A stretch of DNA of 25,831 nucleotides, from positions 1 through 25,831 of the forward strand of contig JBPCUG010000474.1 in NCBI GenBank assembly GCA_051011275.1, read 5' to 3'. The notes below the pieces were generated by a model. The model was not told where the DNA came from. It saw nothing but the letters and a program-made list of their open reading frames with translations, and did not search any database. Position 1 is the first letter of the stretch. Each line of letters begins with the position of its first letter. Source of the stretch: Cyclobacteriaceae bacterium (GTDB lineage Bacteria > Bacteroidota > Bacteroidia > Cytophagales > Cyclobacteriaceae). Made by a program: the position numbers and the translations under genes. Positions 1,410 through 23,680 of the stretch are shown here, one piece after another.

Positions 1410-1410
1410 A

Positions 1411-4400: not shown

Positions 4401-7400
4401 GCATTTCCTGGTGTTTAAATGCATCTAAGATCGAAGATTTGTTACGATTTAAGAATTCTACAAAAGTAGGGTCTCCACTTAGGTCCGAGCGAAATACCAC
4501 TGTGTTTACAAAGTACCCAATTGAGTTTTCTAGCTGCTGAGTACTCCGATTGGCTAAGGGTGACCCAATAGTAATATCGTCTTGGCCGCTATATCTTTTT
4601 AACAAGACATTAAAAGCACATAAAATTGTCATATAAAGGGTACATCCCGTCTGTTTGGATAACTCCTTCAACTTATTACGCAATTCCGGGGTGAACTCAA
4701 TTGGCAGGCGGTCACCTTTAAAACTTTGTCGGGCCGGTCTTGGAAAATCAGTGGATAGCTCCAATGGTGGTAAGTTATCCCCTAATTTAGTCCTCCAATA
4801 TTTTAATTGTCTTTCCTCTTCGTCTTCATCGAACCAACTGCGTTGCCAAACGGTATAATCCGCATACTGAATCGGTGGAGGCCCTAACTCAATTTTTTTA
4901 TCGTTAGCCAAAGCATTGTAAACACTTGCTATTTCAGAGAGAAATACACCAAATGACCAGCCATCAAAAATGATGTGATGCAGAAGGAACAATACTAGAT
5001 GTTGCTGCTCTCCATATTTAATGACCACAGATTTTAGTAACGACTCCGCTTTGAGATCAAAACCTTTACCGGCATACTCATTAGCAAGATCTTTGGCGGC
5101 CGCCAAGGTGTTTTGAGGTTGATCGCTGATATTATGAAAATCAAAGTACAAATCTACATTGCTGCCAATTATTTGCTTTAGCTCGCCATCAATTTCACGG
5201 AATCCGGTTCGCAAGGATTCATGACGGTCAACCATCAGCTCCATTGACTCTTTTAATGCCTTGACGTTTAATTCTCCTTCAGCTCTGAAGCAAATGGGAA
5301 TGTTATACACCGCCAGTCCTGGCTCAAGTTGATCTAAAAACCATAATGCCTCCTGTTGAAACGACGGAGGGACATTACCCAAAACACTTTGGCCTGGCAC
5401 TATTGGTTCTCTTACAGCCGAGGTTTCTTGAGCGTCCAAGACTCCAGCGCCCGATTCCTCTTTAATGATCTTAGCCAAATGTTCTATGGTTGGCGATTCG
5501 AATAAAGTGACTAACGGTATGGCTTTGCCAAACTGTTTCTCTATACGCATTAATAGCTGTGCGGCCAGCAAAGAATGTCCCCCTAAATCGAAAAAACCAT
5601 CAATAACACCAACTCCGGTAACCCCCAATAGAGATTCCCACATTTCTACCAACTGGGATTCCACTTCGTCCCGAGCCTCTTGATAATCTGCGGTCTCGAC
5701 GCTGGCACCATCTGGGTCTGGCAGCGATCTGCGATCGATTTTGCCATTTGGAGTTAGAGGGAAAGATTCCAAAGTCATGTAGATGCCAGGTATCATATAG
5801 TCAGGCAGGTCTTTCTGTAGGTGACTTTTAATCTCCGCAGTGTCAATTTCACCATTCTCCGGTATGATATAACCCACCAATCGGGGCGCCAGTCCTTCTG
5901 CACTCTGTACGGATACTATTGCATCATGAACAGTAGCATGTGATTTCAAGCTGGTCTCGATTTCTCCCAGTTCAATCCGGAATCCCCTGACTTTGACCTG
6001 GTAATCTATTCTACCCAAACATTCAAGTTCACCGTTGGCCAATATGCGAGCGTAATCTCCAGTTTTGTAGATTTTAGAATTACTTGAAGGATCAAATGGG
6101 TTGGAGATGAACTTTTCTTCATTTAGTTCCGGTCGGTTTAAATAACCACGCGCCAATCCGTCACCTCCAATATGCAATTCTCCCACTACACCTCTGGGCA
6201 CCAATTGTAGATGTTTATCTAAAATGTATACTTGGGTATTGTTAACAGGTTTGCCTATTGTTACCTTACCTTCCCTATTCTCTACATGCTTAAAGGTGGC
6301 ATAAACGGTAGCTTCTGTTGGCCCATATCCGTTCCACATGCTAGCACTTTTATCTATCATTTTGGTGGCCAAATCTCTGGGTATCGGTTCACCGCCACAT
6401 AAAATCTTTAATTTCGGAGTTTGCTGCCACCCGGCTTCTACCATCAACCTATAGGTCGCTGGAGTGCCTTGTAATACTGTCACTGACCGCTTTTCAATTT
6501 CGGCCAGCAATGCCTTACCATCCATACTGACCTGCTTGCTTACCAATACCAATCTAGCTCCTGTAACCAGGGGTAAAAAAATCTCAAGTACTGAGATATC
6601 AAAAGACAAAGTGGTAACTGAAAGCAATATGTCCTCTTGTACGAGACCAGGTGTCACTTGAACTGACGATAACATATTGACCGCATTTTTGTGTTCTACC
6701 TGCACACCCTTGGGTTTTCCAGTTGATCCGGAAGTATAAATCACATAAGCTAGCTGCTCAGAACTAAATGAGATTGAAGGGTTGTGCCCTGGCTGGGTTT
6801 CAATACTGGACCAATCATCTATGAAAACCATTTCACCCTGATAATTTGGAAAAGTATCTGCCAAATCTCTGGTAGTCACTAATATTGATGAAGAGGTGTC
6901 CTCCAACATATATTGTAGTCTGTCCTTGGGAAACATTGGGTCCAAAGGAAGATATGCTGATCCCGATTTCAAAATAGCCAATAAGCCAGCAACCATTTCA
7001 ATGCTACGGTCTACACATATACCGATTATTTGATCCGGTTTGGCACCTATCTGCAGCAGGTAATGTGCAAGTTGGTTTGCTTTGATGTTTAAGTCCTTAT
7101 AAGTAATCGATTGCTGCTTGTAAAGAATAGCTATGTGGTCCGGGTGGAAACCGACCTGATTTTCAAACCATTGATGTATACACACCTCCTTAGGGTATGT
7201 ATTTTTTGTGTCATTAATATCCTTCAAAAGAAAGGACTTTTCTCCTTCTGGGAGTATGGAAATACTTTCGATGTGCTGGTTAGGATCCAAAGCGATTTCA
7301 TCCAATAGAATTTGGAAATTTTCTATCATTCTATCTATCGTCCCACTTTCAAATAATTCGGTATTAAACTCTACTACTCCATCGGCACCATTTTCGGTCT

Positions 7401-8662: not shown

Positions 8663-11600
8663 TCACTTCGTTCCACGTGCCTCTCTGGGTACACTGGTTA
8701 TTTTTGGTCTACTTTCAGCTGTATTGTTATCAGAATAACTTATGATTTTAGCAATTGCTTCAATGGTTGGCGACTCAAGCAAAGTGGCTAAAGGTATAGA
8801 TCGTCCAAATTGCTTTTCGATGCGCATAGCCAGTTGTGCTGCTAACAATGAGTGACCACCTAGATCAAAGAATCCATCGTTGATCCCAATTTTTCTTGCA
8901 CCTAACAATTCTTCCCATATCACGACCAGTTGCTTTTCCACTTCATCACGGGCTTCCTGGTATTCAGCATGGCCTTCAAGCTCCATAGTTTCAGGTTCTG
9001 GAAGCGCCTTGCGATCAATTTTTCCACTAGGTGTTAAGGGGAAAGTTTCTAAGGTCACATATGTGCCCGGTATCATATAATCCGGTAGTCTACTTTGTAG
9101 AAATCCCTTAATTTCCACCGCACCCAACTTATTACCCTCATTCAAAATAATGTAACCCACTAGTCGAGGGGCGGGTCCATCTGCATCTCTTACCGACACT
9201 ACTGCATCTCTAATAGCTAGATGCTCTTTGAGCGCTGTCTCTATCTCTCCTAGTTCAATTCTAAATCCGCGAATTTTAACTTGAAAATCATTCCGGCCTA
9301 AGTAATCAATAGTGCCATCTTCCATATATCGAGCCAAATCCCCCGTTTTATATAGCTTGGTACCTTGGTCGCTTCTGAATGGATCGGGGACAAAACGCTC
9401 CGCGGTAAGTTCAGGTCGATTCAAATATCCTCTAGCCACTTGTATCCCACCTAAATAGAGTTCTCCGGGAATACCTATAGGAACAAGCTGCTGCCTTTTG
9501 TCCAGAATATAGGTTTGGGTGTTGGCGATGGGTTTACCTATGGGCACTCGCTTTGACAAGGTTTCAATGCTACAGTCCCAAGTGGTAACATCCACCGCTG
9601 CTTCAGTTGGTCCGTACAAGTTATACAACCCACAACTTAGTTTTTCGAAGAACTTCTTTTTGGTTTCAAATTCAAGAGCTTCCCCACCGCAAAAAACTCG
9701 TTTTAAACTCTTACACTCAGTGACACCGTCTTGCTCAAGAAAGATTTTAAGCATTGAAGGAACAAAATGGAGCGTGGTAACTCCTGTGGCTTTGATTAAA
9801 TCCACCAAATAAGCACTATCCCTGTGGCCCTATGGTTTTGCAATTACCAACCTGGCGCCATATAATAAAGGCCAGAAAAATTCCCCTACTGAAACATCAA
9901 AACTAAAGGGTGTTTTTTGTAAATACCGATCATTTATAGAGAGCTGATATTCCTCTTGAAACCAAATCGATCGGTTACAGATACTCCCATGCTCAACCAT
10001 CACCCCTTTAGGTTTGCCGGTAGAACCTGAGGTGTATAAAACATAAGCGAGATTTTTCTCACTAATTTCATTAGCTGGATTTTCTGGATTACAATTGGCT
10101 ATATCTTCCCAATTTGTGTCCAGGGCTACCTGGGCTATTCCTTCGTTTTTTATCTTGTCCGAGTATTTTGCTGAAGTAAGTACCATGGTCAGACTGGCGT
10201 CCTTTGCCATGAAATCGATTCTATCTTGAGGATACTCGGGATCTATTGGTAAATAGGCCCCCCCGGCCTTCAGGATTCCGTAAATGCCAATTACCATTTC
10301 AAAAGATCGGTCCAATATTATCCCAACTATTTGCTCCGGTCCAACACCCCTTGTTTTTAGATAATTAGCTAGTTGATTTGCTTTGAGGTTTAGCTCATTG
10401 TAGGTCAATTGTTGGCCATCAAATTCAAGTGCAATGCCATCTGGGGTATTCGCAGCTTGGGCTTCGAACATCGCTATCAATGTGTTTTCTTTAGGATATG
10501 GTCTATCAGTATCGTTAATATCTTCCAACAAAAACTTCTGCTCGGACTGAGATAATAGAAATATGTTACCTATGGCTTGGTCTGGATCTGCAACAATTTG
10601 CTCTAGCAAAATCTTAAAATTATTCAGCAGCCGTTCGATTGTTGCTTCTTCAAAAAGATCTGTGTTATATTCAATAAACCCTTTGATACCATCCTGACAT
10701 TCCTTCAATTCTACTAAGAGGTCAAATTTAGAGCTACCAGTACCCACCCAAACCGGATCTAAGGAAAGTCCATTAAACGAACTGTGGTTAGAAGACATAG
10801 ACTGTAAAGCAAGCATTACCTGGAACAGTGGATTGCGGCTCAAATCGCGAACAGGCTTAAGCTCTTCCACTAATTTATCCAACGGCATTCCTTGGTGTTC
10901 AAATGCATCAATAATTGGACCTTTGCTACGTTTTAGCAGCTCAGTAAAAGTGGGGTTGCCTGTTAAATCGGTGCGTACTACCACAGTATTTACATAGTAA
11001 CCGATAGAATCTTCCAGCTCTGAATTACTCCGGTTGGCCATTGGTGAACCTACCGATATATCCTCTTGCCCGCTGTACCTTTTTAATAATACATTAAATG
11101 CACAAAGAATCGTCATGTACAAGGTACACCCGTGCTTCCTGGACAATGCATTTAGTCCGTTTAGGATCTCAGCCGAAAAATCGATCATCCGGTAATCACC
11201 TTTAAAATTTTGCCGGGGAGGTCTGGGGAAATCGGTGTGCAGCTCTAAGGGCTCCAATCCGCCCCCTAACCTCTTTTTCCAAAATTCCAATTGCAGCTCC
11301 TTCTCTTCTTCGTACCATTTCCGCTGCCAAACTGAATAATCTGCATATTGGATATCCAGAGGTTTCAAACTGACATTTTTCCCATTCAAGAGTGTGTTAT
11401 ATGCTGCCGCTAATTCTGAAGCAAAAATATCCTTTGACCAGCCATCAAAAACAGTATGGTGTATCACAAACAACCATAAATATTGTTGTTCTCCATACTT
11501 GATTACTACTGGTCTAAACAATGATTGATCTTTGAGATCGAATCCTGTGGTAGCTTCGTCATTTACTATAAGCAAAGCTTTATCTAGCGCGTTTGGGTCA

Positions 11601-11944
11601 GTAGAAACATCCTGGTATTCAATACGCACCTCTACATTCGTTTGGACAATCTGCTTTAGTTCTCCATCGACCTTCCCAAACCCTGTTCTTAAGGATTCAT
11701 GACGATCGACCAGGTAGTTAATCGATTTAGTCAAAACGGGTAACTCTAAATCGCCTTTAACTTTATAACAGATTGGAATGTTGTAAACTGGTGATCCTGG
11801 CTCAAATTGATCGAGAAACCACAATGCTTCTTGTTGAAAAGAAGGAGGGAAAACAAATGTTTCGTTTTCATTTTCGACTTTGTGTTCTGTTGACTGATTC
11901 TCTTGGTCGCCTAGCACATTGAAATCTTCATTTTCTAAATCCAT
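8663..11944 (-). pseudogene. Monomodular NRPS C-A(Ser-clade variant)-T interrupted by a single in-frame TAG at 9830-9832; 1093 residue positions if read through
   Basis: ORFs 9830..11944 and 8663..9808 are in the same frame. The junction reads GCA AAA CCA TAG GGC CAC AGG GAT AGT GCT TAT TTG = AKP*GHRDSAYL, inside the A core. C domain HHTVFDG, A motifs YTSGSTGKPKG/YGPTE/SGKID and T motif GGHSL are intact. Whether this is a real pseudogene, a sequencing error or read-through cannot be decided from the sequence alone. Confidence 0.85.
10839..10867. repeat. 29-bp exact repeat shared by paralogous C domains (copy 2)
   Basis: Identical to 4355-4383. Confidence 0.85.
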
Positions 11945-11953
11945 GTTTGTTAT

Positions 11954-14900
11954 TTACTTTTCGTTAGCTCTATATGCTTTTCGAGTTACCTTAGAAATCG
12001 AATGACCTTCGGAAGGCTTTTCATCTAGCTTCTCTTGTTGCTTGATTATGCCAAAAATAGTAGGGGCCTTATAAAAATGCCCTAATGAAACGTTAAATCC
12101 AAGTTCTTTTTTCAGCCTAAAGCTAAGTTTTGTGAGTGATAATGAATGACCACCAAGGTCAAAGAAACTATCATGTATTCCGATTTTGCTTATGTGCAGT
12201 TCTTCTAACCAAATATCTGCCACTTTTATTTCCAGTTCAGTTTGAGGTGGGGTGTATTCCGTTTTGTCATTGCGCTGAATTTCTGGTATGGGTAGGGCTT
12301 TGTGATCCAGTTTTCCGTTTGGTGTTATGGGAAATGATTCCATTAATACATAATTTGCTGGAACCATATACTCTGGAAGTTGATCCAGCATGTGGTTTCT
12401 CAAAGTGCCAGGATCAACACTATCTTTATCATTAGCTACCAGATATGCTACCAATCGTTTATCACCCGGGGTATCTTCTCTTACCAATACTGCCGCTTCT
12501 CTGATAATCTCTTGTTGCATCAGTACTGATTCTATTTCCCCTAATTCGATCCTAAATCCTCGAATCTTAACCTGGTGGTCTATACGACCTAAATACTCTA
12601 TATCAGATTCCGTTATAAATCTCGCCAGATCACCAGTTCTATAAAGTGTCTCACTTTCCCGATGAGGGTTTTTTATAAATCTGGATTTATTTAATTCCGG
12701 GCGTTCCAAATAACCCTCGGATACCCCAGCCCCACCTACAAACATTTCGCCTGGAATACCCAAGGGAACAGGCTGAAGGGCGCTGTCAAAAATATAGACC
12801 TTAAGATCAGGTATGGCCTCACCAATTACACTCCCGGACTCCAAATCTCGGGCACTTAATGGTCTATAGGTTACATGTACGGTGGTTTCCGTAATTCCAT
12901 ACATATTTACAAGTTTCGGAGTGTCGTCACCATGGCGCTCAAACCACGGAGCCAAACTTTGAAGGTCTAGAGCTTCTCCCCCAAATATTACTGTTCGCAG
13001 TGATAGTTGATCTGTAGTCCGTTTCGATTCCTCTGCTTTGATAAGTTGATTAAAAGCTGATGGGGTTTGATTTAAAACTGTTACCCTTTCACTCACAAGT
13101 AGGTCGTAGAATAGTTCGGGATCACGAGTGGTCATTTGAGGGACTACCACCAATTTACCTCCAAATAACAAAGCTCCCCAGATCTCCCAAACAGAAAAAT
13201 CAAAGGCATAGGAATGAAATAATGTCCATACATCAGAGCTTGTGAAATTAAACCAATGCTCGGTTGATTGAAATAATCTCACCACATTATAGTGCGATAC
13301 TTTTACTCCTTTTGGCTTCCCAGTGGAACCGGATGTGTAAATAACGTAGGCCAATGCTGTGGGGTCGAAAGATCTTCCCGGGTTCGATTGGCCAGAGTTA
13401 TTGATATTAACATCATCTAAAAAAATAACCTCAGGGGCGTTTTCCGGGATCTTATCAGCCAGTGCTTTTTGGGTCAAAAGCATCGGTGCTTTGGCATCTT
13501 CAAGCATGAATGCCAAACGTTCCTTTGGATAGCTAAGATCAATAGGCAAATAAGCCCCTCCGGATTTTAGAATGGCCAGAATACCTACAATTAATTCAAG
13601 AGACGGATCAGCGCATATCCCTACCAAGTCTCCCTTGCTAATCCCCCGAGATAATAAATAATTGGCCAGTTGATTAGCTTTCCTGTTCAGAGTATCGTAG
13701 TCAAGGGTGTCCCCCTGGTAGGAAATTGCGGTTAACTTAGGATTTTGTTTAACCTGATCTTCGAAAAGATCGATAATACTAAGATTAGATTGACTGGTGT
13801 CAATTTTCCTTTCAGTAGTTTTTTCGAAGGTTTCTATTTCTTGTTCAGTCAATAATCTTAAGCTGCTGACTGGTAAAGTAGGGTCAGCAATAACAGAATC
13901 AATCAGAGTCTCAAAATGACCAGCCATCCTTTCAATGGTTTCAGGGTCAAATAAGCTAGTACTATATTCAAAATATCCTTTTAACCCAGTCTCGTTTTCA
14001 AACAAATGTAAGGCCAAATCATATTGAGAGGTTCCGCTATCAAACCAGAAAGGGCTAAGTTTAGCATCTCCAAGTTGTAATTCCGTTTGGTTGGAAATCT
14101 GTAAAACAACTTGAAACATAGGATGATAACTCATATCCCTTTCCGGGCTCAATCTTTCTACTAATTTTTCAAATGGAACGTCCTCATTTTGATAGGCCTC
14201 CAAAGTGACGTCTTTCACCTGTTTTAACAACTGATCAAAAGTTGGGTTTGCAGAGAAATTGGTTCTTAGTACCAACATATTTAAGAACAGGCCAATCATA
14301 TGCTGCAGCTCCTTGCGATTGCGCTTGGCCATTGGTGTCCCTATAATGACATCCTCACTGCCCGTATATCTATATAACAATGTGTTATATATAGCACTAA
14401 CCACCATAAACAAAGTACATTGGTTACTTTGAGCCAATCTTTGCAATTTCTGATACCGGGCACTATCAATCTCTACAAAATGCTTGGCTCCATTGAAATC
14501 TTGCTGGCTAGGTCTAGGCCGGTTTCTTGGGAGTTCCAATACAGGTGGGCATCCTTTTAATTGCTTTTCCCAATACTTAAGTTGATCCTCAATGAGCTCC
14601 TCCTCCATCCACTGACGCTGCCATTGAGCGTAATCAGCATATTGTATACTTAGTTCAGGTAAATTTGGTGCTCGTCCTTCTAAAAATGCTTGATATAAAA
14701 TTGATAATTCATTAAATAATATGCCCATTGAAAGCCCATCACAAATTATATGGTGAAGATTCAGGATTACCACATGTTTGGTGGGACTTTGAGAAATTAG
14801 TTTAGCTTTTATCAAGGGCCACTTTGCCAATTCGAAAGTACTTTGTGCAACTTCTCTAACCAACTCGTGCATTTTAGAATCAGTGCCGTCCTGAACATCT

Positions 14901-15280
14901 ATAGTTACCTCTTCGATTTCAATTTCAATTTCATTGGATTCAATTGGTTGTTGAACAGGCTGATCAGAAATCTTTATAAATTCACTCGACAATATTTCAT
15001 GTCGAGCTAGTATGGCGTTGAGAGCCTTTTGTAACAAGACCCGGTCAATTTCCCCATCTATACATAATGCTACTGGCACATTATCGGAGGGATGGCCGGA
15101 ATAAAGTTGATATAAAAACCACAGTCTTTCTTGAGCAAAGGAAAGTGGTGCCGCCTCTTTATTTGCTCGTGGAATAATAGGTATATTCGATATTCCAATG
15201 CCTTCTGATTTCAACAGAGCAGCAAATTCGCTCCTTTGTTCAGGAGTTAGATTGGCAATATTTTTTAACAAATCTTCCAT
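11954..15280 (-). CDS. Monomodular NRPS C-A(Thr)-T, 1108 aa
   Basis: C domain HHIICDG. A domain FDFSVWEIW / TVLNQTP / VIFGGE / NMYGITETTVHV gives the code DFWNIGMVHK, the canonical Thr signature. T domain SFFDLGGHSL. Confidence 0.95.
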   Translation of the reverse strand: MEDLLKNIANLTPEQRSEFAALLKSEGIGISNIPIIPRANKEAAPLSFAQERLWFLYQLYSGHPSDNVPVALCIDGEIDRVLLQKALNAILARHEILSSEFIKISDQPVQQPIESNEIEIEIEEVTIDVQDGTDSKMHELVREVAQSTFELAKWPLIKAKLISQSPTKHVVILNLHHIICDGLSMGILFNELSILYQAFLEGRAPNLPELSIQYADYAQWQRQWMEEELIEDQLKYWEKQLKGCPPVLELPRNRPRPSQQDFNGAKHFVEIDSARYQKLQRLAQSNQCTLFMVVSAIYNTLLYRYTGSEDVIIGTPMAKRNRKELQHMIGLFLNMLVLRTNFSANPTFDQLLKQVKDVTLEAYQNEDVPFEKLVERLSPERDMSYHPMFQVVLQISNQTELQLGDAKLSPFWFDSGTSQYDLALHLFENETGLKGYFEYSTSLFDPETIERMAGHFETLIDSVIADPTLPVSSLRLLTEQEIETFEKTTERKIDTSQSNLSIIDLFEDQVKQNPKLTAISYQGDTLDYDTLNRKANQLANYLLSRGISKGDLVGICADPSLELIVGILAILKSGGAYLPIDLSYPKERLAFMLEDAKAPMLLTQKALADKIPENAPEVIFLDDVNINNSGQSNPGRSFDPTALAYVIYTSGSTGKPKGVKVSHYNVVRLFQSTEHWFNFTSSDVWTLFHSYAFDFSVWEIWGALLFGGKLVVVPQMTTRDPELFYDLLVSERVTVLNQTPSAFNQLIKAEESKRTTDQLSLRTVIFGGEALDLQSLAPWFERHGDDTPKLVNMYGITETTVHVTYRPLSARDLESGSVIGEAIPDLKVYIFDSALQPVPLGIPGEMFVGGAGVSEGYLERPELNKSRFIKNPHRESETLYRTGDLARFITESDIEYLGRIDHQVKIRGFRIELGEIESVLMQQEIIREAAVLVREDTPGDKRLVAYLVANDKDSVDPGTLRNHMLDQLPEYMVPANYVLMESFPITPNGKLDHKALPIPEIQRNDKTEYTPPQTELEIKVADIWLEELHISKIGIHDSFFDLGGHSLSLTKLSFRLKKELGFNVSLGHFYKAPTIFGIIKQQEKLDEKPSEGHSISKVTRKAYRANEK

Positions 15281-15281
15281 T

Positions 15282-18200
15282 TTAGCTTTCGCCTGGACTT
15301 TGTACTTTTTTCAATAAGTCTGCTAGTTTATTACTGTTATCCTGTTGGGTAACCTGTTTCTCATCTACCAATGATGCCAATGATGCCACCGTTGGTGCCG
15401 CAAACAAATCTTTTATATCAATACTAACGTTCGTCGATTTGTTGATATCCGCAATAATCTGAGTACCTAAAAGCGAATTACCCCCGAGCTCATAATAGTT
15501 TTCATAAATACCCAATTGCTTTATCCCTAATCGACTGCGCCATATTTTGCTAATCTCCTCCTCCAATTGATTTCTAGGGCCCTCAATGCTGGAGTCAAAA
15601 CTCATTTCCTCTTGAACCTCAATCTCTTCTTCAGGAGCATCCAATCCGGTGAATGTCAATGAACTTCCATAGGCACTTTGAAAATCTCTGGGGTAAATCA
15701 CTATGTGATGTAGCCCACTACTGACGATCCGCTCAAATACCTCTAGCCCTTCTCGGTTGGTTATGGCATTCTCCATAGCTTTTTCCTTCCAGGGTCCTTC
15801 TGGTAAATCAGTTAATATGCCCACTTCTTTCCAGCCGGGCCAGTTAATATTAATTGTGGTACAGTCTGGAATCGTCGCACTTGGTTGACTATTAGCATCC
15901 AAGAACGCGCTTGCAGAAACATAATCTATTTGGCCGGTTGGAGCTAAATAGGCGTTAATCGAAGAAAACTGGATAAATAGCGGGATGTTCAAAGCCGCCA
16001 CTTGGTCTTTCAAATTATTTGTGCCTTCAACTTTGGGACTTAGGACGTTTTGTAATGTCTCTCGGGTTTTCTGGCTTATAGGGCTGTCATCTATCATCCC
16101 TGCACTGTGGATAACACCATCTATAGACCCGAAATGTTGTTTCAATTGGTTAAAAGTTTTTGCAACAGCCTCTTTATCTCCAACATCTACTATTGGAGTC
16201 AAAACCTCAATACCCTTTTCCTCCAAAAATTTCAAGCCTTCAATTCGCTCTTTGGTTCTCCGGTCAAGAGAAGAATCTGCTAGAAGCTTGTCCCAAGAAT
16301 CCTTAGATGGGATTTTACTTCTTCCTAGCAACGCCAGTTTTACCTGGTATTCATTCGCCAAATGCTTCGCAACCTCCAACCCTACCCCATTGAGGCCTCC
16401 GGTAATAGCATAGACCCCTTGCTTTTTAAACTTCGAGGCAGAAGGGATACCAGGTGACATGGTCACCGGCTCAAAATGCATGCTCCAAGTAGATCTTTCC
16501 TTCAAAACACGTATCGGCTCCACACTTGATCTTGAAAATTCATTAAGTATTTTAGGAGATAATTGGAGCGACTGGTGATCAATTAATTGCATGTCCAGTT
16601 GCATCATTTTGATGTGGGGATACTCCTTCGGTATGACCCTAGTGGGCCCAATAAGTAATGCACCTCCGGTCACAATTTTCTCCTCTCCGGTAATCTCAAA
16701 AGTATCTTTTGAAATTACTCCTATTCTGAATTTTTTATCTACCATATGGCCACATACAGAAGCTGTATCCGATAGCGCCATAAAATTAGCAAGGTACTGA
16801 TCAGTATTTCCCTCAAATAGACAACAATATAGAATGTTGATATCGCTCTCTTTAACGATAGTCATCAAACGTTCAAATTCTTCCTTATCAGTTGAATCTA
16901 TTTCAATATCTGAATTGTTTTTTTTATTTAACGAAGAAGTAAATCTATGGACTGATTTGCCCTGAGATTGCAATGAGTCCTCTAACGCACTTTCAAGCTC
17001 CGTGTTAGCACCCATTATTACCCAAGCGCCAGTAGGTAACTCCAGGGTTCCCAGGTTAAGGTTTGCACGTTTCTTCCAGGTTGGTACGTAGCCCCAATTT
17101 TTCAGTTCTTGTCTGCTTCTGGCAGTCAACTGGTTCTGCTTAGCACTATACCAATGTTCACTACGATCAAACGGATAAACTGGCAGCGGCACCCGGTTTA
17201 GTGGTTGTTTTCCATTGACCTCTTCCCAATTGATTTTTATGCCCTCTAGAAACAATTTTCCTAATGCATTCAGCTGAAATATTAAATCAGAGCCTTCCTC
17301 CTTAGGATGGCGCATCGATGGATAAGCTGTTTGTTCTTTACTCCGTAAAGGATGTTGGTTTACAAAAGTACTTAGGTTTCGGCCAGGTCCTACTTCCAAA
17401 AAAATACGACCGGGTACTTTAAGCAATTCTTCCAGGGTGTCATTGAATCGCACGGCACTGCGCAAATGATCCTGGTAATATTGATTGCTGGTGGCCATCT
17501 CCTTAGTAATCCAGCTACCGGTTACATTTGAAATATAGGGAATCTCGGGAGGCTTCAGCTTAATCTTTTGTAAGGCTTTATCGAAGTCTTCCAGAATTAC
17601 GTCAATCATCGGGGAATGGGCAGCAACATCCACCTTCAATTTCTTCGCTTCTACACCCTCTTTAGCCAGTACTTCGAAAAGTTGGTCTATGGACTTTTCC
17701 GGCCCGGATGCTACGCAAAGCGAGGGTGTATTGATGGCAGCCAAGGTCAGGTCGTCCTTTAGGTATTTTGTTACTTCCTTTTCTGACATTGGTATGCTTA
17801 GCATAGATCCTTTGGGCAAGGTTTCGAAAAGCCTCCCCCGTATTACGACCATATATAAAGCATCTTGCCATGAGATCACCCCTGACAAACATGCCGCAAC
17901 ATATTCACCTACACTATGGCCAGTCATAGCACTGGGCTTTATCCCCCAGGAATCCCAAAGCCTAGCCATTGCATAAGATGATATGAATAAAGCTGGTAGA
18001 CCAATGGAAGGTCTTTTGAACGCTTCCCTGGCCTCAGCTAAGGCGCTCTCCTCCGGAAACAGCAACGGTTTTAGATCAAAATCCATTTCCTTGCTTAAAA
18101 AGTCTAGGCACAAATCGACCTCTTCTCGATACTTGACTTCCCCTTGGTATAAATCCTTGCCCATATTGGGATATTGTGCACCACCACCGGGGAACATAAA

Positions 18201-19793
18201 TACCAAATCTTTTGATTGATCCGGTGCTAAACCTTGAGGCACCTTACTTGGGTCTGGATTTTGGAGTAACTCCGATGCTTGTTTTCGATCTTCAGACACT
18301 AAAAATCTTCGATGCTTCAAGGCTTTTCTACCTACTTGGAGGGTGCTGGTAATGTCTTGAAATGAGAAATCTGTAGAGGCGAGATAAGCAGAGAGATTCT
18401 CCGTCAGATGGCCAAGAGCAGTAGCACTATGACTAGACCAGACCATAAGTCGCGGTTTGGGAGATTGCTCTGCCGATTTTCTGCTGGGTGCTTCCTCTAG
18501 GACGATATGTGCATTGGTACCGCCAATTCCTAACGAAGTTACTCCTGCCCTCCTGGGGGGGCCATTAGTGGTCCACTCACGAAGCCGGTCATTGATAAAA
18601 AATGGGCTTTGTGGGAAGTCAATTTCGGGGTTGGGTGTTTCGAAGTTTAAGGTTGCTGGAATTTTTTGGTGTTTTAAAGCCAACGCTGTTTTGATCAATC
18701 CAGCGACTCCTGCGGCAGCATCCAGATGTCCTATGTTGGACTTCACGGAGCCGATAGCACAGTATTGGTTTTTGTCCGTATCCATTCTGAAGGCTTTTGT
18801 TAGCGCAGTAACTTCAATGGGATCTCCCAAGTAGGTACCGGTTCCATGAGCCTCAATATATGAAATGCTATCAGCGCTTACTCCAGCACTTGCTAAGGCT
18901 TCTACCACTACCTCTGCTTGGCTGTTTACGCTTGGTGCAGTGTAATCTGTTTTTCGCGAACCATCGTTATTGACGGCACTGCCTTTTATTACAGCATGTA
19001 TGGTATCATTGTCCTTTACGGCATCAATTAATCTTTTGAGAGTAACGATACCTACACCGCTTCCGAAAATCGTACCTTGGGCACTGGCATCAAAAGGGCG
19101 GCAATGTCCATCCGGTGAAAACACGGCCCCTTTGCTGTAAAAATGACCTAACTCATTTGGTACTCTTATTGAAACGCCACCGGCTAAGGCCAGATCACAC
19201 TCCTCATTGATTAAACTTTGACAGGCACTATGTACAGCTACTAATGAAGTGGAGCAAGCAGTCTGCACTGTAACACTGGGACCTTTTAAATTCAATTTAT
19301 AGGAAACCCTGGTGGTCAAAAAGTTATTATCATTCCCAATAAGCGTCGATAAGTAATCAGTTACGAATTTGGAGTTGTGTCCGCTGTTGATGAAATAAGT
19401 GTTCATAGCCGTTCCTCCGTAAACACCTATCGGCCCATTAAAATCTTCGGGGTTGTATCCCGCATGTTCCATAGCATGCCAGGCGCACTCCAGGAAAATC
19501 CTCTGTTGCGGATCCATTAATACCGCCTCTCTAGGAGAATATCCAAAAAATTTGGCATCAAAAGACTTGTAATTTTCTAAAACCGGCGAGGCTTTTACGT
19601 AACTAGGATCATTGACAAAAGCTGCATCGACACCTGCTTTGATAAGCTCTTCTTCGCTAAAGAAGGAAATTGACTCCACACCATTAGCAAGATTTTCCCA
19701 ATATGATTCGATGGAATCAGCACCGGGGAATCGCCCCGCCATTCCGATTATAGCAATATCAAACTCACTGATATTTTGCAAACTCTGCTGCAT
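15282..19793 (-). CDS. Single-module cis-AT type I PKS: KS-AT-KR-ACP, 1503 aa
   Basis: KS triad VQTACSTS (Cys 19254-19256), EAHGTGT and NIGHL. AT GHSVG (Ser 17913-17915), RGRLF and VAAH. KR TGGLNGVG, HSAGMIDD, PKVEG and YVSAS. ACP LGGNSL. No DH or ER between AT and KR. Confidence 0.95.
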   Translation of the reverse strand: MQQSLQNISEFDIAIIGMAGRFPGADSIESYWENLANGVESISFFSEEELIKAGVDAAFVNDPSYVKASPVLENYKSFDAKFFGYSPREAVLMDPQQRIFLECAWHAMEHAGYNPEDFNGPIGVYGGTAMNTYFINSGHNSKFVTDYLSTLIGNDNNFLTTRVSYKLNLKGPSVTVQTACSTSLVAVHSACQSLINEECDLALAGGVSIRVPNELGHFYSKGAVFSPDGHCRPFDASAQGTIFGSGVGIVTLKRLIDAVKDNDTIHAVIKGSAVNNDGSRKTDYTAPSVNSQAEVVVEALASAGVSADSISYIEAHGTGTYLGDPIEVTALTKAFRMDTDKNQYCAIGSVKSNIGHLDAAAGVAGLIKTALALKHQKIPATLNFETPNPEIDFPQSPFFINDRLREWTTNGPPRRAGVTSLGIGGTNAHIVLEEAPSRKSAEQSPKPRLMVWSSHSATALGHLTENLSAYLASTDFSFQDITSTLQVGRKALKHRRFLVSEDRKQASELLQNPDPSKVPQGLAPDQSKDLVFMFPGGGAQYPNMGKDLYQGEVKYREEVDLCLDFLSKEMDFDLKPLLFPEESALAEAREAFKRPSIGLPALFISSYAMARLWDSWGIKPSAMTGHSVGEYVAACLSGVISWQDALYMVVIRGRLFETLPKGSMLSIPMSEKEVTKYLKDDLTLAAINTPSLCVASGPEKSIDQLFEVLAKEGVEAKKLKVDVAAHSPMIDVILEDFDKALQKIKLKPPEIPYISNVTGSWITKEMATSNQYYQDHLRSAVRFNDTLEELLKVPGRIFLEVGPGRNLSTFVNQHPLRSKEQTAYPSMRHPKEEGSDLIFQLNALGKLFLEGIKINWEEVNGKQPLNRVPLPVYPFDRSEHWYSAKQNQLTARSRQELKNWGYVPTWKKRANLNLGTLELPTGAWVIMGANTELESALEDSLQSQGKSVHRFTSSLNKKNNSDIEIDSTDKEEFERLMTIVKESDINILYCCLFEGNTDQYLANFMALSDTASVCGHMVDKKFRIGVISKDTFEITGEEKIVTGGALLIGPTRVIPKEYPHIKMMQLDMQLIDHQSLQLSPKILNEFSRSSVEPIRVLKERSTWSMHFEPVTMSPGIPSASKFKKQGVYAITGGLNGVGLEVAKHLANEYQVKLALLGRSKIPSKDSWDKLLADSSLDRRTKERIEGLKFLEEKGIEVLTPIVDVGDKEAVAKTFNQLKQHFGSIDGVIHSAGMIDDSPISQKTRETLQNVLSPKVEGTNNLKDQVAALNIPLFIQFSSINAYLAPTGQIDYVSASAFLDANSQPSATIPDCTTININWPGWKEVGILTDLPEGPWKEKAMENAITNREGLEVFERIVSSGLHHIVIYPRDFQSAYGSSLTFTGLDAPEEEIEVQEEMSFDSSIEGPRNQLEEEISKIWRSRLGIKQLGIYENYYELGGNSLLGTQIIADINKSTNVSIDIKDLFAAPTVASLASLVDEKQVTQQDNSNKLADLLKKVQSPGES

Positions 19794-19801
19794 AAGTGTA
19801 G

Positions 19802-22800
19802 CTACCGCCGGTTACGCCCTCTTTTTCGTTCTCTTCTATTCGCGCCTCTTTGCCGACTTGTTTCAGCGTTTACCGTGGACGAAGAATCCCCTTGAAGTGT
19901 ACTTACCATGGAACTAATGGAAGGGCTCTCAAAAAGATTGACAATTGATATATCCAGGTTTAGATTTCTCTTTAACAAAGCTACTAACTGAACCCCTTTC
20001 AAAGAAGTACCACCTATCTCGAAAAAATTATCATTAATCCCAATATTGGAAGAATTTAATACTTGCGACCATATTTCTGCAATGGCCTTTTCCAAATCAT
20101 TCTCTGGAGCAATATATTCAGCACTGCTTACCTTCACATCAACTACTGCGTGAGACGATTGTATTTGTTTCAAAATTGCTGCTGGGGTAGATAATTCACC
20201 AGCAATTTCCGCTAGAATTTGATTGCTTACCAGCACGGGAGACTGGACCGTTGAACTTAAGTCTTGGCTATCACTCGCCGGTTGACCAGCATCAGGATCG
20301 AAAGCTAAGGTCTTCGCAATTGCTACCGGTAAGTCAAAACGATGCCCAGTTTCAAGATCCGACATAAATTCAGTAGCGATGCTCTCCAGGAATTTTAGGG
20401 CTGGAAGATTTTTGGTGGTAGGAATAAAATTAAGAACTACCTTTTCCAAGCCTTGGTTGGAGGCCTTCTCTCCTAGGGTTTGAACCATCTTGTGTGCCAC
20501 GCCTTTACCTAATACCCGGCAACTGAGCAAAAAAGTATCCACATGAAGTGCCGCTTGTTGAAGCTTGTATAAAATCACACCTACTAGTCCATAGTCTCCA
20601 AAGCGATCTCGCACACGTACGGTTAGCGCGTGCAGTTCGTCGCTTTTTAACAGTTTTCTAATTTCAGACTCAGATCTTCGTATAGTAGTAAGATTGAATT
20701 GATTGGTTCGATGAGTCAATTGCGAAATACGGGGAAAATCTTCTGAAGTAGGTTCTTCAATTGTAATATCCAAATTTAAGCTTCCAATGAAATCCTTTAG
20801 AGTTAGTGATTCTTCTTTAAGGTGCTCCCTTTGAATATTCTGCTGGTACATCTTGGTGCGTTGCTGGTCCTCCTTGGTCACCTCCATATGGTCGAAGGCC
20901 CAGATATTTTTTAAAAATTCGGGGATTTTTAAAGGGTCTTGTGGTAAAGTGAAAGTCAACACAGACGGACATGCTGCAGATACTTCAGCAGTTTCCATCG
21001 CATTGTCGTCAATAAAAATAAAGCTGTCCAATCCCAGATTAAGCTCTTGAGCCAATATTTTAATATTATCTGATTTTGCCTCCCAGTTTATCTTATGAGC
21101 CACTATATGGTCCAGACTTAATAACATATCATCTCTTTGCTGAAATATGTCCAAAACATCTTGTTCGGCATTTTTACTACAAAGACAAAGGATCATGCCC
21201 TCCTTCGTTTGTTGGATCATAAAATCATGAAGAAACTTGTACTCCTCATCAATGGTGACACCTTGAACACCCTCTTCTCCAACTACCCCTTTCCAAAGTG
21301 TATTATCACAATCCAGTACAATTACCTTTCGGGGGGTGCTATGTAAGCTGTAGAATTTTCTGGCTACTGTAGAGCCCAGTGCTGCAAAATACTCATTAGT
21401 ATAAGGGACGTGACCGATCTCATTTCCTTCGGGGTCGAAGTATTCCGGGACTTCATAGTAACGATCTACTTCTGAGGAACCAAATGCATGCAAGTTCTTT
21501 ACCTTAGAAATTCGGCTTAGCAAAAGATCCTCTAATTTTTGATACCGATTCTCCAACTCTTGGATTTCTTTTACTCCCGGAGATCGAGGGGCCACCATAA
21601 CAAGATAGGGAACGGACGAATTGGCGGCTACAGACTCCAGGGTGGCGGATAGATCGTTGATATTTTTTTCCACCTCTTCCCAACGATTGTCCGCTTCTTC
21701 TTGCGAGACCTGCCCCTTTCTGGTTGCAAAAATATTATACAGACCTGAATGCTGCAATAAATCCTCTTCTTCAATATGAAACTCGAAGCCTCGCTTCTCC
21801 AATATTTCCTTTACCTCAGCAATAACCGGACCCTCAGTGTCATGAACTTCCATCACAATCTGCTTAATCTTGGGCCAATTGTCGTCGGCAATTCCATGAA
21901 GAATAGGCAACTCGCTTTTTTCAGCATCAATTTTCAGCAAATCAATGCTTTCAAGGTTATTTTCTTCGATAATGTCCGCAATAGAAATAAGTTGACAGGT
22001 GAAATTCTTGCTTTGCATACGATCCACCATGATTTCGTCCAAATAGGCATCTAAGGCGCCGGTATCTGCGGTAGAACTCTCTCTTAGCATATTTCGAACT
22101 ACTGCACTTATAGCTTCCTTATCCAATTCGGCGTCTGCATTGAAGCTTGAAAAAACTGAAGATTTTTCGTAAAAAGTAAATTCAGCTTCTCTCTTCTGGT
22201 CAGCAACGCCATAGGCGAAAGCTTTAACATTAGACCCATATAATTGAGCATTGGCGGATAGAATCTCATGTACTACCGGCGAAGGCTCATACGCATAGAC
22301 TCTTGGGTTTTTACATTGTTGGTTTACCCATAGTGTGAACATTCCGATATTTGCTCCTATATCTAAAATGCAGTCACCATCCTTGATAACAATATCGTGC
22401 TTGTTATAACTTTGATCGACAAAAATTTCTTGATACAAATACTCCGTTTCGTATTGGTTTAAGTGTGCGATCTTCAACCCGTTTGGCAATACGTAAGAAT
22501 CCTGCTCGCCAATGATAGCCGCCAACTCCGGGCCGGAAAAATTAGATTGTAGTTGATGACCTTTGCGCATCCAGTCCTCCAATCCCAATAGTAGTATATT
22601 GGCCCCTTGGGCATTACTACGAGTTTGACTGCTGGGATCTAATAGTTCCTGAAACACCTGATTATATGGTGCAATTTCTATGTTGAATGGAAGTTTAAGT
22701 GTACTGCTCCAAAAAGCCAGAGAGCCTTGCAAGGGATCCGCCGTAAATGTACTGGTTATTACAAGTTTAGTGCTAGCTATCTTTGTACTATGATCTAAAA

Positions 22801-23605
22801 AACTGTAAGAAGCACCTATCAGAGATCCAAAATGTTCTCCATTTACATCATAAAGAAAAACATTAGCAGAATCTTGCCTTTCATTAAGGACTGCTTTACA
22901 ATAAAAATCGTCTTGAATAGTTCGAATTAGGCGCACCTCTTGGAAACCTCCTAGTACAAAGGTTTTGCCTGCTGAACTTGTTAGGCTTGCTAGTACTTGA
23001 ACGCAAGCATCTAATAACACAGGATGAACCGCAAACTGCTGGATTTCCGAACTAACTTTATTGCTAAGCTTTATCTTACCTAAAGCAGTTCTTTCTCCCA
23101 GCCAAACTTGATCAACCACTTGGAATTGTGGTCCGTATTGATTGCCATTTGCTAGCAATCGCTCATAGCAGTCCTGTCCAGATAGAATTTCTGGTTGTTC
23201 GGAGTTAACAGAATCTAAATCAAGATCCTCAATGATTGATCTATCAGGGACTGAATGAGGAATAGATAGCGAAACCAGGGACCCGTTTGGTTCTGAGTCA
23301 CCCCTCTGGGAGCACCAAATTTCTGTCGCGCTTTCCCCGATGTTTGTTGAAAAGTGTAGCTTTTCTTCTTTTCCGCCAATTAAAAAAAGTTGCCTATAAT
23401 TTATATCAGTCAAATATAACTCTGAATAATTTAATTTACTCGAGGCAAACTGGAGGGCTTGATCTATATAAAATGATCCTGGGAGGACCACCATGTCTTG
23501 AAAGCCATGGTCAGGTAAAAACGAATATGTCTCTATATTTGGCTCAAAACTCCATATTTCTAATTGGTTGTTAAGTAGCCGGTCGTTCTTTTCGCGTAGC
23601 TGCAT
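19802..23605 (-). CDS. Multidomain loading protein: PKS-type DH, FkbH-like glyceryl transferase/phosphatase with an inserted FkbM-family O-methyltransferase, and ACP; about 1267 aa
   Basis: DH motifs HGFQDMVVLP (23480-23509) and LLDACVQ (about 23000). FkbH N-region TFTADP...APYNQVFQELLDP...EDW. FkbM LDIGANIG, YEPSP and LLKIDAE. HAD motif DCDNT (about 21300), FIDD, RTNQFNLT and SCRVLG (Cys 20519-20521). ACP FEIGGTSL. Start placed at ATG 23605 rather than TTG 23638. Confidence 0.9.
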   Translation of the reverse strand: MQLREKNDRLLNNQLEIWSFEPNIETYSFLPDHGFQDMVVLPGSFYIDQALQFASSKLNYSELYLTDINYRQLFLIGGKEEKLHFSTNIGESATEIWCSQRGDSEPNGSLVSLSIPHSVPDRSIIEDLDLDSVNSEQPEILSGQDCYERLLANGNQYGPQFQVVDQVWLGERTALGKIKLSNKVSSEIQQFAVHPVLLDACVQVLASLTSSAGKTFVLGGFQEVRLIRTIQDDFYCKAVLNERQDSANVFLYDVNGEHFGSLIGASYSFLDHSTKIASTKLVITSTFTADPLQGSLAFWSSTLKLPFNIEIAPYNQVFQELLDPSSQTRSNAQGANILLLGLEDWMRKGHQLQSNFSGPELAAIIGEQDSYVLPNGLKIAHLNQYETEYLYQEIFVDQSYNKHDIVIKDGDCILDIGANIGMFTLWVNQQCKNPRVYAYEPSPVVHEILSANAQLYGSNVKAFAYGVADQKREAEFTFYEKSSVFSSFNADAELDKEAISAVVRNMLRESSTADTGALDAYLDEIMVDRMQSKNFTCQLISIADIIEENNLESIDLLKIDAEKSELPILHGIADDNWPKIKQIVMEVHDTEGPVIAEVKEILEKRGFEFHIEEEDLLQHSGLYNIFATRKGQVSQEEADNRWEEVEKNINDLSATLESVAANSSVPYLVMVAPRSPGVKEIQELENRYQKLEDLLLSRISKVKNLHAFGSSEVDRYYEVPEYFDPEGNEIGHVPYTNEYFAALGSTVARKFYSLHSTPRKVIVLDCDNTLWKGVVGEEGVQGVTIDEEYKFLHDFMIQQTKEGMILCLCSKNAEQDVLDIFQQRDDMLLSLDHIVAHKINWEAKSDNIKILAQELNLGLDSFIFIDDNAMETAEVSAACPSVLTFTLPQDPLKIPEFLKNIWAFDHMEVTKEDQQRTKMYQQNIQREHLKEESLTLKDFIGSLNLDITIEEPTSEDFPRISQLTHRTNQFNLTTIRRSESEIRKLLKSDELHALTVRVRDRFGDYGLVGVILYKLQQAALHVDTFLLSCRVLGKGVAHKMVQTLGEKASNQGLEKVVLNFIPTTKNLPALKFLESIATEFMSDLETGHRFDLPVAIAKTLAFDPDAGQPASDSQDLSSTVQSPVLVSNQILAEIAGELSTPAAILKQIQSSHAVVDVKVSSAEYIAPENDLEKAIAEIWSQVLNSSNIGINDNFFEIGGTSLKGVQLVALLKRNLNLDISIVNLFESPSISSMVSTLQGDSSSTVNAETSRQRGANRRERKRGRNRR

Positions 23606-23680
23606 ATTTGGTAGTTCTCTAAAAAAATTGAAGCCCAATCAGGGACACCAAACAAGGGTTCAGGTGGTTCATTCAAGGCG

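What the first reader, a model, noticed from the sequence alone, without database searches (positions are those of the whole stretch)
19802..23605. Stand-alone DH-FkbM-FkbH-ACP starter factory predicted to make 2-methoxyacrylyl (or O-methylglyceryl)-ACP
Seen in sequence: four catalytic units in one protein with intact key residues. These are the DH His (23507-23509) and Asp (23009-23011), the FkbM SAM motif DIGANIG, the HAD motif DCDNT with the SCRV Cys, and the ACP Ser. There is no KR. Established: FkbH loads glycerate from 1,3-bisphosphoglycerate, and DH*-KR*-FkbH-ACP modules (bryostatin BryA, FR901464) convert it to lactate. Inference: replacing the KR with an O-methyltransferase would trap the enol, giving CH2=C(OMe)-CO-. 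After one KS/KR round this yields a 3-hydroxy-4-methoxypent-4-enoyl cap on a tetrapeptide. I recall a similar logic proposed for trans-AT macrolides such as phormidolide (needs checking), but I do not know it feeding a single cis-AT module plus NRPS.
Basis: partly seen in the sequence, partly recalled or inferred. Interest (0 to 1): 0.75.

Follow-up and report, generated by a model that had tools for sequence, protein, structure and literature searches.

The report
Free-standing methoxyacrylyl starter-loading enzyme
This gene encodes a real four-part enzyme (dehydratase, methyltransferase, glycerate loader, carrier) that most likely makes a 2-methoxyacrylyl starter for a small polyketide-peptide line, but the same module design is already described for the oocydin and phormidolide synthases and is common in genomes, so it is a new member of a known kind.

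Summary
Minus-strand ORF 19802-23605 (ATG; an upstream TTG lies at 23638) encodes DH, an FkbM methyltransferase nested in the FkbH N-terminal region, the FkbH core and an ACP.

The literature describes OocJ module 1 as DH-MT-FkbH-ACP. [quoted passage not shown]

- P0001 aligns colinearly (36% over 1202 residues) with trans-AT loaders of that design.
- DH-less relatives (OciA of Planktothrix; Nodularia sphaerocarpa and Nostoc KVJ20 NRPSs matching published SuoB/BslA) are 43-46% identical. Published modules of that design (SuoB, BslA) are proposed to load 2-O-methylglycerate. So O-methylation of the C2 hydroxyl probably comes first, followed by DH elimination, rather than "enol trapping".
- The DH dyad is invariant in 120 homologues.
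- The DH also occurs where no downstream KR exists, which argues that it acts on the starter.

The stand-alone form followed by KS-AT-KR-ACP is the commonest genomic context: 538 or more genome loci in at least ten phyla. This scan reached the same verdict at least five times before on other DNA. Features particular to this window are the absence of the FkbK-ACP-FkbI-A set, an odd AT motif (VAAH) and an in-frame TAG in NRPS module 2.

The parts
19802..23605 (-). Loader gene (P0001/P0002): DH, FkbH with nested FkbM, ACP. 1267 aa from ATG 23605; the open frame reaches TTG 23638.
22829..23554 (-). PKS-type dehydratase domain (res 29-270) with His44 (23507-23509), YGP and Asp210/Gln214 (Asp at 23009-23011)
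   Evidence: Pfam PF14765 1.5e-23 and PF21089. Nearest solved structures are the CurF/CurH/CurK DHs. His 116/116 and Asp 120/120 in homologues.
22439..22771 (-). First part of the FkbH N-terminal region (res 290-400)
   Evidence: It adjoins the second part directly in 44 MT-less FkbH loci
21704..22438 (-). FkbM-type SAM methyltransferase (res 401-645) inserted into the FkbH N-terminal region; DIGANIG at 22343-22363
   Evidence: PF05050 and TIGR01444. The insert is 239-272 residues in 33 loci. The motif is invariant in 120 homologues.
21344..21703 (-). Second part of the FkbH N-terminal region (res 646-765)
20366..21331 (-). FkbH core: HAD-IIIC phosphatase half (DCDNT 21299-21313) and C-terminal half with Cys1040 (20519-20521)
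   Evidence: TIGR01686 1.7e-92 and TIGR01681. D776/D778/T780/C1040 are conserved.
19901..20086 (-). Carrier domain (PCP-like GGTS motif, Ser1212 at 20003-20005), followed by a basic C-terminal tail
   Evidence: PF00550 8.7e-12; Ser 120/120
15282..19793 (-). cis-AT PKS module KS-AT-KR-ACP. The KS has Cys/His/His. The AT has GHSVG and VAAH. The KR has an IDD (B-type-like) motif.
11954..15280 (-). NRPS module 1 (C-A-T)
8663..11944 (-). NRPS module 2 (C-A-T); its A domain is cut by an in-frame TAG at 9830-9832
1411..8643 (-). NRPS modules 3 and 4 plus thioesterase (C-A-T-C-A-T-TE)
492..1451 (-). Polysaccharide-deacetylase-like protein, a recurrent partner of this cassette
   Evidence: Weak PF01522 match. 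53% identical to the gene after the TE in L036 and 45% to the one in L061, where the open frame is 747 aa. Atlas relatives are about 305 aa; one matching cluster (755 aa) carries glycosyltransferase domains.

Best explanation
P0001 is a free-standing starter-unit module. (1) The FkbH core takes the glyceryl group from 1,3-bisphosphoglycerate, removes the phosphate, and passes it via Cys1040 to the phosphopantetheine of its own ACP. This is established for FkbH enzymes and inferred here. (2) The nested FkbM domain methylates the C2 hydroxyl with SAM, giving 2-O-methylglyceryl-ACP. This is inferred from DH-less relatives of the design that published work on SuoB and BslA links to 2-O-methylglycerate. 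(3) The N-terminal DH (His44/Asp210) removes the C2 proton and the C3 hydroxyl, giving 2-methoxyacrylyl-ACP, an enol ether. This is inferred from the published phormidolide/oocydin module of the same design. (4) The next gene's KS-AT-KR-ACP extends the starter once and reduces the keto group, giving a 3-hydroxy-4-methoxypent-4-enoyl chain. That chain is passed to a four-module NRPS and released by the TE. Steps 1-3 rest on homology and conservation. Step 4 rests on gene order and intact KS and KR motifs. Nothing was measured, and module 2 carries an in-frame stop, so the line may be impaired.
For: Domain set and all catalytic motifs are intact. They are invariant or nearly so in 120 homologues: His44 116/116, Asp210 120/120, Tyr168 119/120, Pro53 119/119, DxGANIG, DxDxT, Cys1040 and Ser1212. 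Literature: OocJ module 1 = DH-MT-FkbH-ACP (PMC4552970); the phormidolide first module makes a 2-methoxyacrylyl starter and methoxyvinyl congeners exist (PMC6174933). P0001 is colinear with trans-AT megasynthases that have DH-FkbM-FkbH-ACP-KS-ECH-ECH-ACP: L030 of Leptolyngbya PCC 7375 and P0196, 36% identity over 1202 residues. The same loader is fused directly to C-A-T in Amycolatopsis (P0232). In both of those settings no KR product exists for the DH to act on. DH-less FkbM-FkbH-ACP-sulfotransferase relatives (OciA; Nodularia sphaerocarpa and Nostoc KVJ20 NRPSs matching SuoB/BslA; 43-46% identical) have the design that published work on SuoB and BslA links to 2-O-methylglyceric acid 3-O-sulfate. 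On the tree, cyanobacterial DH forms are sister to these sulfotransferase forms (SH-aLRT 99). The C3 hydroxyl is thus either sulfated or, where a DH is present, available for elimination. The window holds no other loading domain, and the KS has its Cys/His/His.
Against: There is no biochemical or product evidence for this protein or any stand-alone homologue, and I know of no in vitro reconstitution of the trans-AT modules either. The Gly of HxxxGxxxxP is Asp. In cis-AT settings the DH always co-occurs with a DH-less KS-AT-KR-ACP whose KR looks B-type, which would also fit a DH acting later. I could not compare directly with the OocJ or phormidolide sequences, only with unnamed proteins of identical architecture. 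The DH alone is no closer to other loaders' DHs than to ordinary module DHs.
Confidence: 0.65

Rival explanations
1. The DH is not active on the starter. The loader delivers 2-O-methylglyceryl-ACP, and the cap becomes 3,5-dihydroxy-4-methoxypentanoyl.
For: The FkbM-FkbH-ACP part alone is proposed to load O-methylglycerate in published SuoB/BslA modules, and P0001 is 43-46% identical to proteins of that design. The HxxxG glycine is Asp. The OocJ DH and MT were once judged non-functional from their motifs (PMC4552970).
Against: His, Asp, Tyr, Gln and Pro of the DH site are conserved in essentially all 120 homologues, although the domain otherwise diverges quickly (23-39% identity). Nature makes O-methylglycerate with DH-less modules, so keeping about 280 extra residues implies a use. 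The OocJ judgement was later revised.
Confidence: 0.15
2. The N-terminal DH acts in trans on the 3-hydroxy product of the next module, alone or in addition to acting on the starter. The cap would be 5-hydroxy-4-methoxypent-2-enoyl or 4-methoxypenta-2,4-dienoyl.
For: In every cis-AT locus that could be read, the DH form is followed by a KS-AT-KR-ACP without its own DH. The window's KR has the IDD motif typical of KRs that feed a DH.
Against: The same DH-MT-FkbH-ACP unit precedes a KR-less beta-branching module (L030, P0196) or a C domain directly (P0232), so its conserved job cannot depend on a downstream KR. A DH at the N-terminus of the upstream protein serving a downstream cis-AT module has no precedent that I know of.
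Confidence: 0.12
3. The protein is an extender-unit factory (methoxymalonyl-ACP) rather than a starter loader.
For: The sister clade (Type I) sits beside FkbK-like and FkbI-like oxidoreductases. The window's AT has VAAH where all relatives have the malonyl motif HAFH.
Against: The window has no FkbK/FkbI. The best matches in the genome are only 38% and 34% identical, against 56-82% (FkbK-like) and 53-74% (FkbI-like) among true cluster partners, L019 apart. In Type I those enzymes come with their own small ACP and a stand-alone A domain, a self-contained set like ZmaG/H/I/J of zwittermicin (the zwittermicin parallel is from my own knowledge). Without this loader the window's KS would have no starter.
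Confidence: 0.05

Closest known systems
OocJ module 1 (oocydin/haterumalide) and the first module of the phormidolide trans-AT PKS
   Same: Same domain order, DH-MT-FkbH-ACP. The published product is a 2-methoxyacrylyl starter derived from 1,3-bisphosphoglycerate. Proteins of identical architecture align colinearly with P0001 (36% identity).
   Different: Those modules are the N-terminus of megasynthases (the architecture-equivalent proteins read here exceed 4500 aa), served by trans ATs and followed by a beta-branching module. Here the unit is a separate 1267-aa protein followed by a cis-AT KS-AT-KR-ACP and an NRPS.
OMT-FkbH-PCP-sulfotransferase loading modules of OciA (cyanopeptolin/oscillapeptin), SuoB (suomilide) and BslA (banyaside-like)
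   Same: The FkbM domain is nested in FkbH in the same way; 43-46% identity over residues ~280-1250 to OciA and to Nodularia sphaerocarpa and Nostoc KVJ20 NRPSs of this design. Published SuoB and BslA are proposed to make a glycerate-derived, 2-O-methylated unit.
   Different: They have no DH, carry a sulfotransferase after the carrier, and are fused to C-A-T. The C3 hydroxyl is sulfated, not eliminated.
DH*-KR*-FkbH*-ACP lactate loaders (BryA of bryostatin, Fr9C of FR901464); recalled from my own knowledge, not read here
   Same: A DH placed before FkbH acts on carrier-bound glycerate.
   Different: A KR reduces the resulting pyruvyl group to lactyl. P0001 has no KR and has an O-methyltransferase instead.
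FkbG/H/I/J/K methoxymalonyl-ACP pathway
   Same: FkbH loading of glycerate followed by O-methylation.
   Different: That pathway needs the FkbK and FkbI oxidoreductases, which are not in the window or convincingly in the genome, and it has no DH.

Membership tests
DH-MT-FkbH-ACP 2-methoxyacrylyl loading module (OocJ1 / phormidolide type) | Domain order: DH, methyltransferase, FkbH, ACP | tested here: met
   Pfam and NCBIfam coordinates
DH-MT-FkbH-ACP 2-methoxyacrylyl loading module (OocJ1 / phormidolide type) | Full-length colinear homology to loaders that head trans-AT PKSs with a following KS plus ECH beta-branching module | tested here: met
   L030 (Leptolyngbya PCC 7375) and P0196: 36% identity over residues 131-1265, with Pfam DH, FkbM, KS, two ECH stretches and ACPs. 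The named OocJ and Phm sequences themselves were not available.
DH-MT-FkbH-ACP 2-methoxyacrylyl loading module (OocJ1 / phormidolide type) | Intact catalytic residues in all four parts | tested here: met
   His44, Asp210, DIGANIG, DCDNT, Cys1040 and Ser1212
DH-MT-FkbH-ACP 2-methoxyacrylyl loading module (OocJ1 / phormidolide type) | Part of a trans-AT megasynthase | tested here: not met
   It is a separate gene; the next gene has its own AT. This is a difference of setting, not of module design.
DH-MT-FkbH-ACP 2-methoxyacrylyl loading module (OocJ1 / phormidolide type) | The product carries a methoxyvinyl group | not testable with these tools
   Needs mass spectrometry of the loaded carrier or of the natural product
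OMT-FkbH-PCP-ST O-methylglycerate loaders (OciA/SuoB/BslA) | FkbM nested in the FkbH N-terminal region | tested here: met
OMT-FkbH-PCP-ST O-methylglycerate loaders (OciA/SuoB/BslA) | Sulfotransferase after the carrier, and no DH | tested here: not met
   No sulfotransferase match in the window; a DH is present
DH-KR-FkbH-ACP lactate loaders | KR domain between DH and FkbH | tested here: not met
   No KR/SDR match in P0001. All residues between DH and FkbH are accounted for by the FkbH N-terminal parts and FkbM.
Methoxymalonyl-ACP pathway (FkbGHIJK) | FkbK (3-hydroxyacyl-CoA dehydrogenase type) and FkbI (acyl-CoA dehydrogenase type) partners | tested here: not met
   None in the window. The best genome matches are 38% and 34% identical, on other contigs. 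The genome is 88% complete, so absence is not proven.

The most novel reading that the evidence does not exclude
The stand-alone loader with its KS-AT-KR-ACP is the core of a large, uncharacterised class of small enol-ether-bearing metabolites, found in cave, soil and sediment bacteria of at least ten phyla. In this class the N-terminal DH may work twice, on the starter and in trans on the next module's 3-hydroxy product, giving a 4-methoxypenta-2,4-dienoyl warhead. A DH of that kind, placed on the loader but serving a cis-AT module, would be a new arrangement.
Probability: 0.1. Interest if true: 0.6.

Novelty: new member of a known kind. Interest (0 to 1): 0.3.

Why it matters
The 2-methoxyacrylyl starter is a rare enol-ether building block. 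As far as I could find, it has only been proposed from gene architecture and product structures, not shown in a test tube. A soluble-sized, self-contained protein of about 1270 residues is a far easier object than the trans-AT megasynthases that carry this module (the ones read here exceed 4500 residues). It could be used to test the order of methylation and dehydration and to serve as a portable loading part. The census also shows that hundreds of uncultured bacteria carry this loader with one cis-AT module, so a whole family of products remains unidentified. For this particular window the value is modest. The design is known, the scan has met it several times, and the downstream line has an in-frame stop.

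Tried and rejected
The contexts of the closest homologues, P0003 (58%) and P0005 (48%), could therefore not be read.
- The phormidolide gene-cluster paper is not held. I relied on Meoded 2018 and Matilla 2015 for what it reports.
- Searches for FkbH+FkbM+dehydratase, enol/glyceryl, lactyl/FR901464 and methoxyacrylyl found no biochemical study of the module.
- Corramycin and the Mycale paper were irrelevant.
- A DH-only search of 1.84 billion representatives found 5038 hits. The list is dominated by multi-DH megasynthases. Other loaders' DHs score no higher than ordinary module DHs, so no loader-specific DH clade could be shown.
- The tree that included MT-less FkbH rows as an outgroup was poorly resolved at its base. 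I use only the starred groupings.
- Sequencing runs: no RNA holder is listed. The DNA holders are cave-metagenome contigs from one study, at low depth. They showed no indels in the loader and did not cover the TAG site usefully.
- A motif-anchored read of the A-domain codes was only partial: the last module reads DIL...IWK, the broken module DV...LVD, and module 1 was not captured. I do not confirm the Thr/Ser/Gly/Gly assignment.
- The promoter scan of the 460-nt region upstream found nothing above chance on the minus strand.
- A cyanobacterial origin is unlikely: no psbA-type match was found in the genome, which is 88% complete.
Full report
**What is there.** The window is the whole of contig C474 of a metagenome-assembled genome (4.1 Mb, 828 contigs, 88% complete). 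Nearly all of it is one minus-strand operon.
- Eight nucleotides later comes KS-AT-KR-ACP (19793-15282).
- Then follow C-A-T (15280-11954) and a second C-A-T whose A domain is cut by an in-frame TAG at 9830-9832 (11944-8663).
- The line ends with C-A-T-C-A-T-TE (8643-1411) and a polysaccharide-deacetylase-like gene (1451-492).
- A membrane acyltransferase_3 gene and a 185-aa ORF with no family match are transcribed divergently upstream.

**The observation.** Pfam and NCBIfam place four domains in the loader:
- a PKS dehydratase at residues 29-258;
- an FkbM methyltransferase at 424-620;
- the FkbH domain at 770-1091 (310 bits against a cut-off of 147);
- a carrier domain at 1185-1246.

No KR is present. 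The stretches on either side of the FkbM domain are the two halves of the FkbH N-terminal region. In 44 FkbH loci without a methyltransferase these halves adjoin. In 33 loci with one they lie 239-272 residues apart. The methyltransferase is therefore an insertion, as a sibling note on this genome said.

**How common it is.** The word-indexed search returned more than 2000 relatives. The top 120 are all about 1250-1350 aa with the same Pfam set. A scan of one genome per species found at least 538 loci in:
- Acidobacteriota, Verrucomicrobiota, Chloroflexota and Ignavibacteriota;
- Thermodesulfovibrionia, Betaproteobacteria and Planctomycetota;
- Cyanobacteria and others.

In the window's own lineage the gene is sporadic. 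None of 40 relatives in the family and order carries it. Only one of 400 sampled genomes of the phylum does, at 43% identity. The host is probably not a cyanobacterium, because no psbA-type match was found. The DNA recurs in cave-metagenome runs from one study.

**Contexts.** Four kinds were seen.
- *Type I, the commonest.* Loader, FkbK-like dehydrogenase, an 84-aa ACP, FkbI-like dehydrogenase, a stand-alone A domain, then KS-AT-KR-ACP ending in a TE or followed by a C domain.
- *Type II, as in the window.* Also seen in L005 (Thermodesulfovibrionia) and in L032 and L036 (Chloroflexota). The loader is followed at once by KS-AT-KR-ACP, then by an NRPS or a TE, with the deacetylase-like gene nearby.
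- *Trans-AT megasynthases.* They begin DH-FkbM-FkbH-ACP-KS-ECH-ECH-ACP (L030 of Leptolyngbya PCC 7375; P0196 and relatives).
- *Direct fusion to C-A-T.* Seen in Amycolatopsis (P0232).

Without the DH, the FkbM-FkbH-ACP unit is followed by a sulfotransferase and C-A-T. Examples are OciA of Planktothrix, a Nodularia sphaerocarpa NRPS, a Nostoc KVJ20 NRPS and several Nostoc loci.

**What is known.** Matilla et al. describe the first module of OocJ as DH-MT-FkbH-ACP (PMC4552970). Meoded et al. make three relevant statements (PMC6174933):
- this architecture belongs to PKSs that use 1,3-bisphosphoglycerate-derived starters;
- haterumalide B, biselide B and a new oocydin congener keep the methoxyvinyl group.

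The suomilide and banyaside papers assign 2-O-methylglyceric acid 3-O-sulfate to the OMT-FkbH-PCP-ST loading module (PMC8609519, PMC13122637).

**Why I think the DH acts on the starter.**
- The catalytic His, Asp, Tyr, Gln and Pro are kept in essentially all 120 homologues. The DH as a whole has drifted to 23-39% identity.
- The DH unit occurs in front of a KR-less beta-branching module, and directly in front of a C domain. Its conserved role therefore cannot be to dehydrate a downstream KR product.
- Cyanobacterial DH forms are sister to the sulfotransferase forms on the tree (support 99). The two designs differ in what happens to the C3 hydroxyl.
- The FkbK/FkbI genes of Type I first looked like competitors for that hydroxyl. 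They come with their own small ACP and A domain. From my own knowledge this is a self-contained set resembling the zwittermicin aminomalonyl-ACP genes, so there is no conflict.

Because DH-less modules of this design are linked to O-methylglycerate, methylation of the sp3 hydroxyl most likely precedes dehydration. Trapping of a transient enol is the less likely order.

**What remains open.**
- Nothing has been measured.
- In cis-AT settings the DH always travels with a DH-less KS-AT-KR-ACP, and the window's KR has an IDD motif. A later or second action of the DH therefore cannot be excluded.
- The DH alone does not form a recognisable loader-specific group.
- The window's AT reads GHSVG and VAAH, whereas every relative's cis AT domain that I read has HAFH. 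The extender unit here is uncertain.
- The in-frame TAG may mean that the line is impaired, or it may be an error in a low-depth assembly. The runs I laid did not settle this.

**Verdict.** The novelty is limited to a free-standing copy in a Type II setting. Earlier follow-ups in this scan reached the same conclusion on other genomes. I had reached mine before reading them.

Noticed in passing
window 17616-17627 (AT domain of the PKS, residues 723-726): The AT specificity motif reads VAAH (with GHSVG), whereas the cis AT domains of all relatives' PKS modules that I read (Types I and II and other cis-AT loci) have the malonyl motif HAFH. The extender unit of this module may differ from its relatives'.
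   Followed up: partly
window 9830-9832: An in-frame TAG splits the A domain of NRPS module 2. Pfam matches 1-238 of the profile before it and 249-384 after it. It could be a real nonsense mutation or a low-depth assembly error; the laid contigs did not cover it usefully.
   Followed up: partly
window 492-1451; L036:19528-20532; L061:7262-9502: A deacetylase-like protein of about 305-320 aa recurs next to this cassette: 53% identity in L036 and 45% in L061, where the open frame is 747 aa. A structurally matching atlas cluster of 755 aa carries glycosyltransferase family 4/1 domains. In L036 the neighbours are a DegT aminotransferase, a GNAT/FemAB-like protein and a glycosyltransferase. This hints that the small acyl product may end up on a sugar.
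   Followed up: partly
L024:13656-17764; L099:15195-19190 (G137, same phylum): The commonest context (Type I) carries FkbK-like, an 84-aa ACP, FkbI-like and a stand-alone A domain between the loader and the PKS. This looks like a self-contained aminomalonyl- or hydroxymalonyl-ACP pathway, yet the module's AT has the malonyl motif. The product of this very widespread cassette is unknown.
   Followed up: partly
P0232 (Amycolatopsis sp. QT-25, WP_276368656.1): DH-FkbM-FkbH-ACP is fused directly to C-A-T, with no PKS module. This predicts an N-(2-methoxyacryloyl) amino acid or peptide in a cultured actinomycete.
   Followed up: no
window 19805-19855 (last 17 residues of the loader): A strongly basic C-terminal tail (nine Arg/Lys in 17 residues). 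Three Arg positions are conserved across the 17-sequence alignment. It may be a docking element for the partner KS.
   Followed up: no
window 21704-22438: The FkbM domain is an insertion of 239-272 residues (by my domain boundaries) between two halves of the FkbH N-terminal region. Those halves adjoin in 44 methyltransferase-less FkbH loci.
   Followed up: yes
L030 (Leptolyngbya sp. PCC 7375, JH993793.1): A trans-AT PKS opens with DH-FkbM-FkbH-ACP-KS-ECH-ECH-ACP-KS-KR, and two free AT genes lie just upstream. This is the phormidolide/oocydin opening in a sequenced culture-collection strain.
   Followed up: partly
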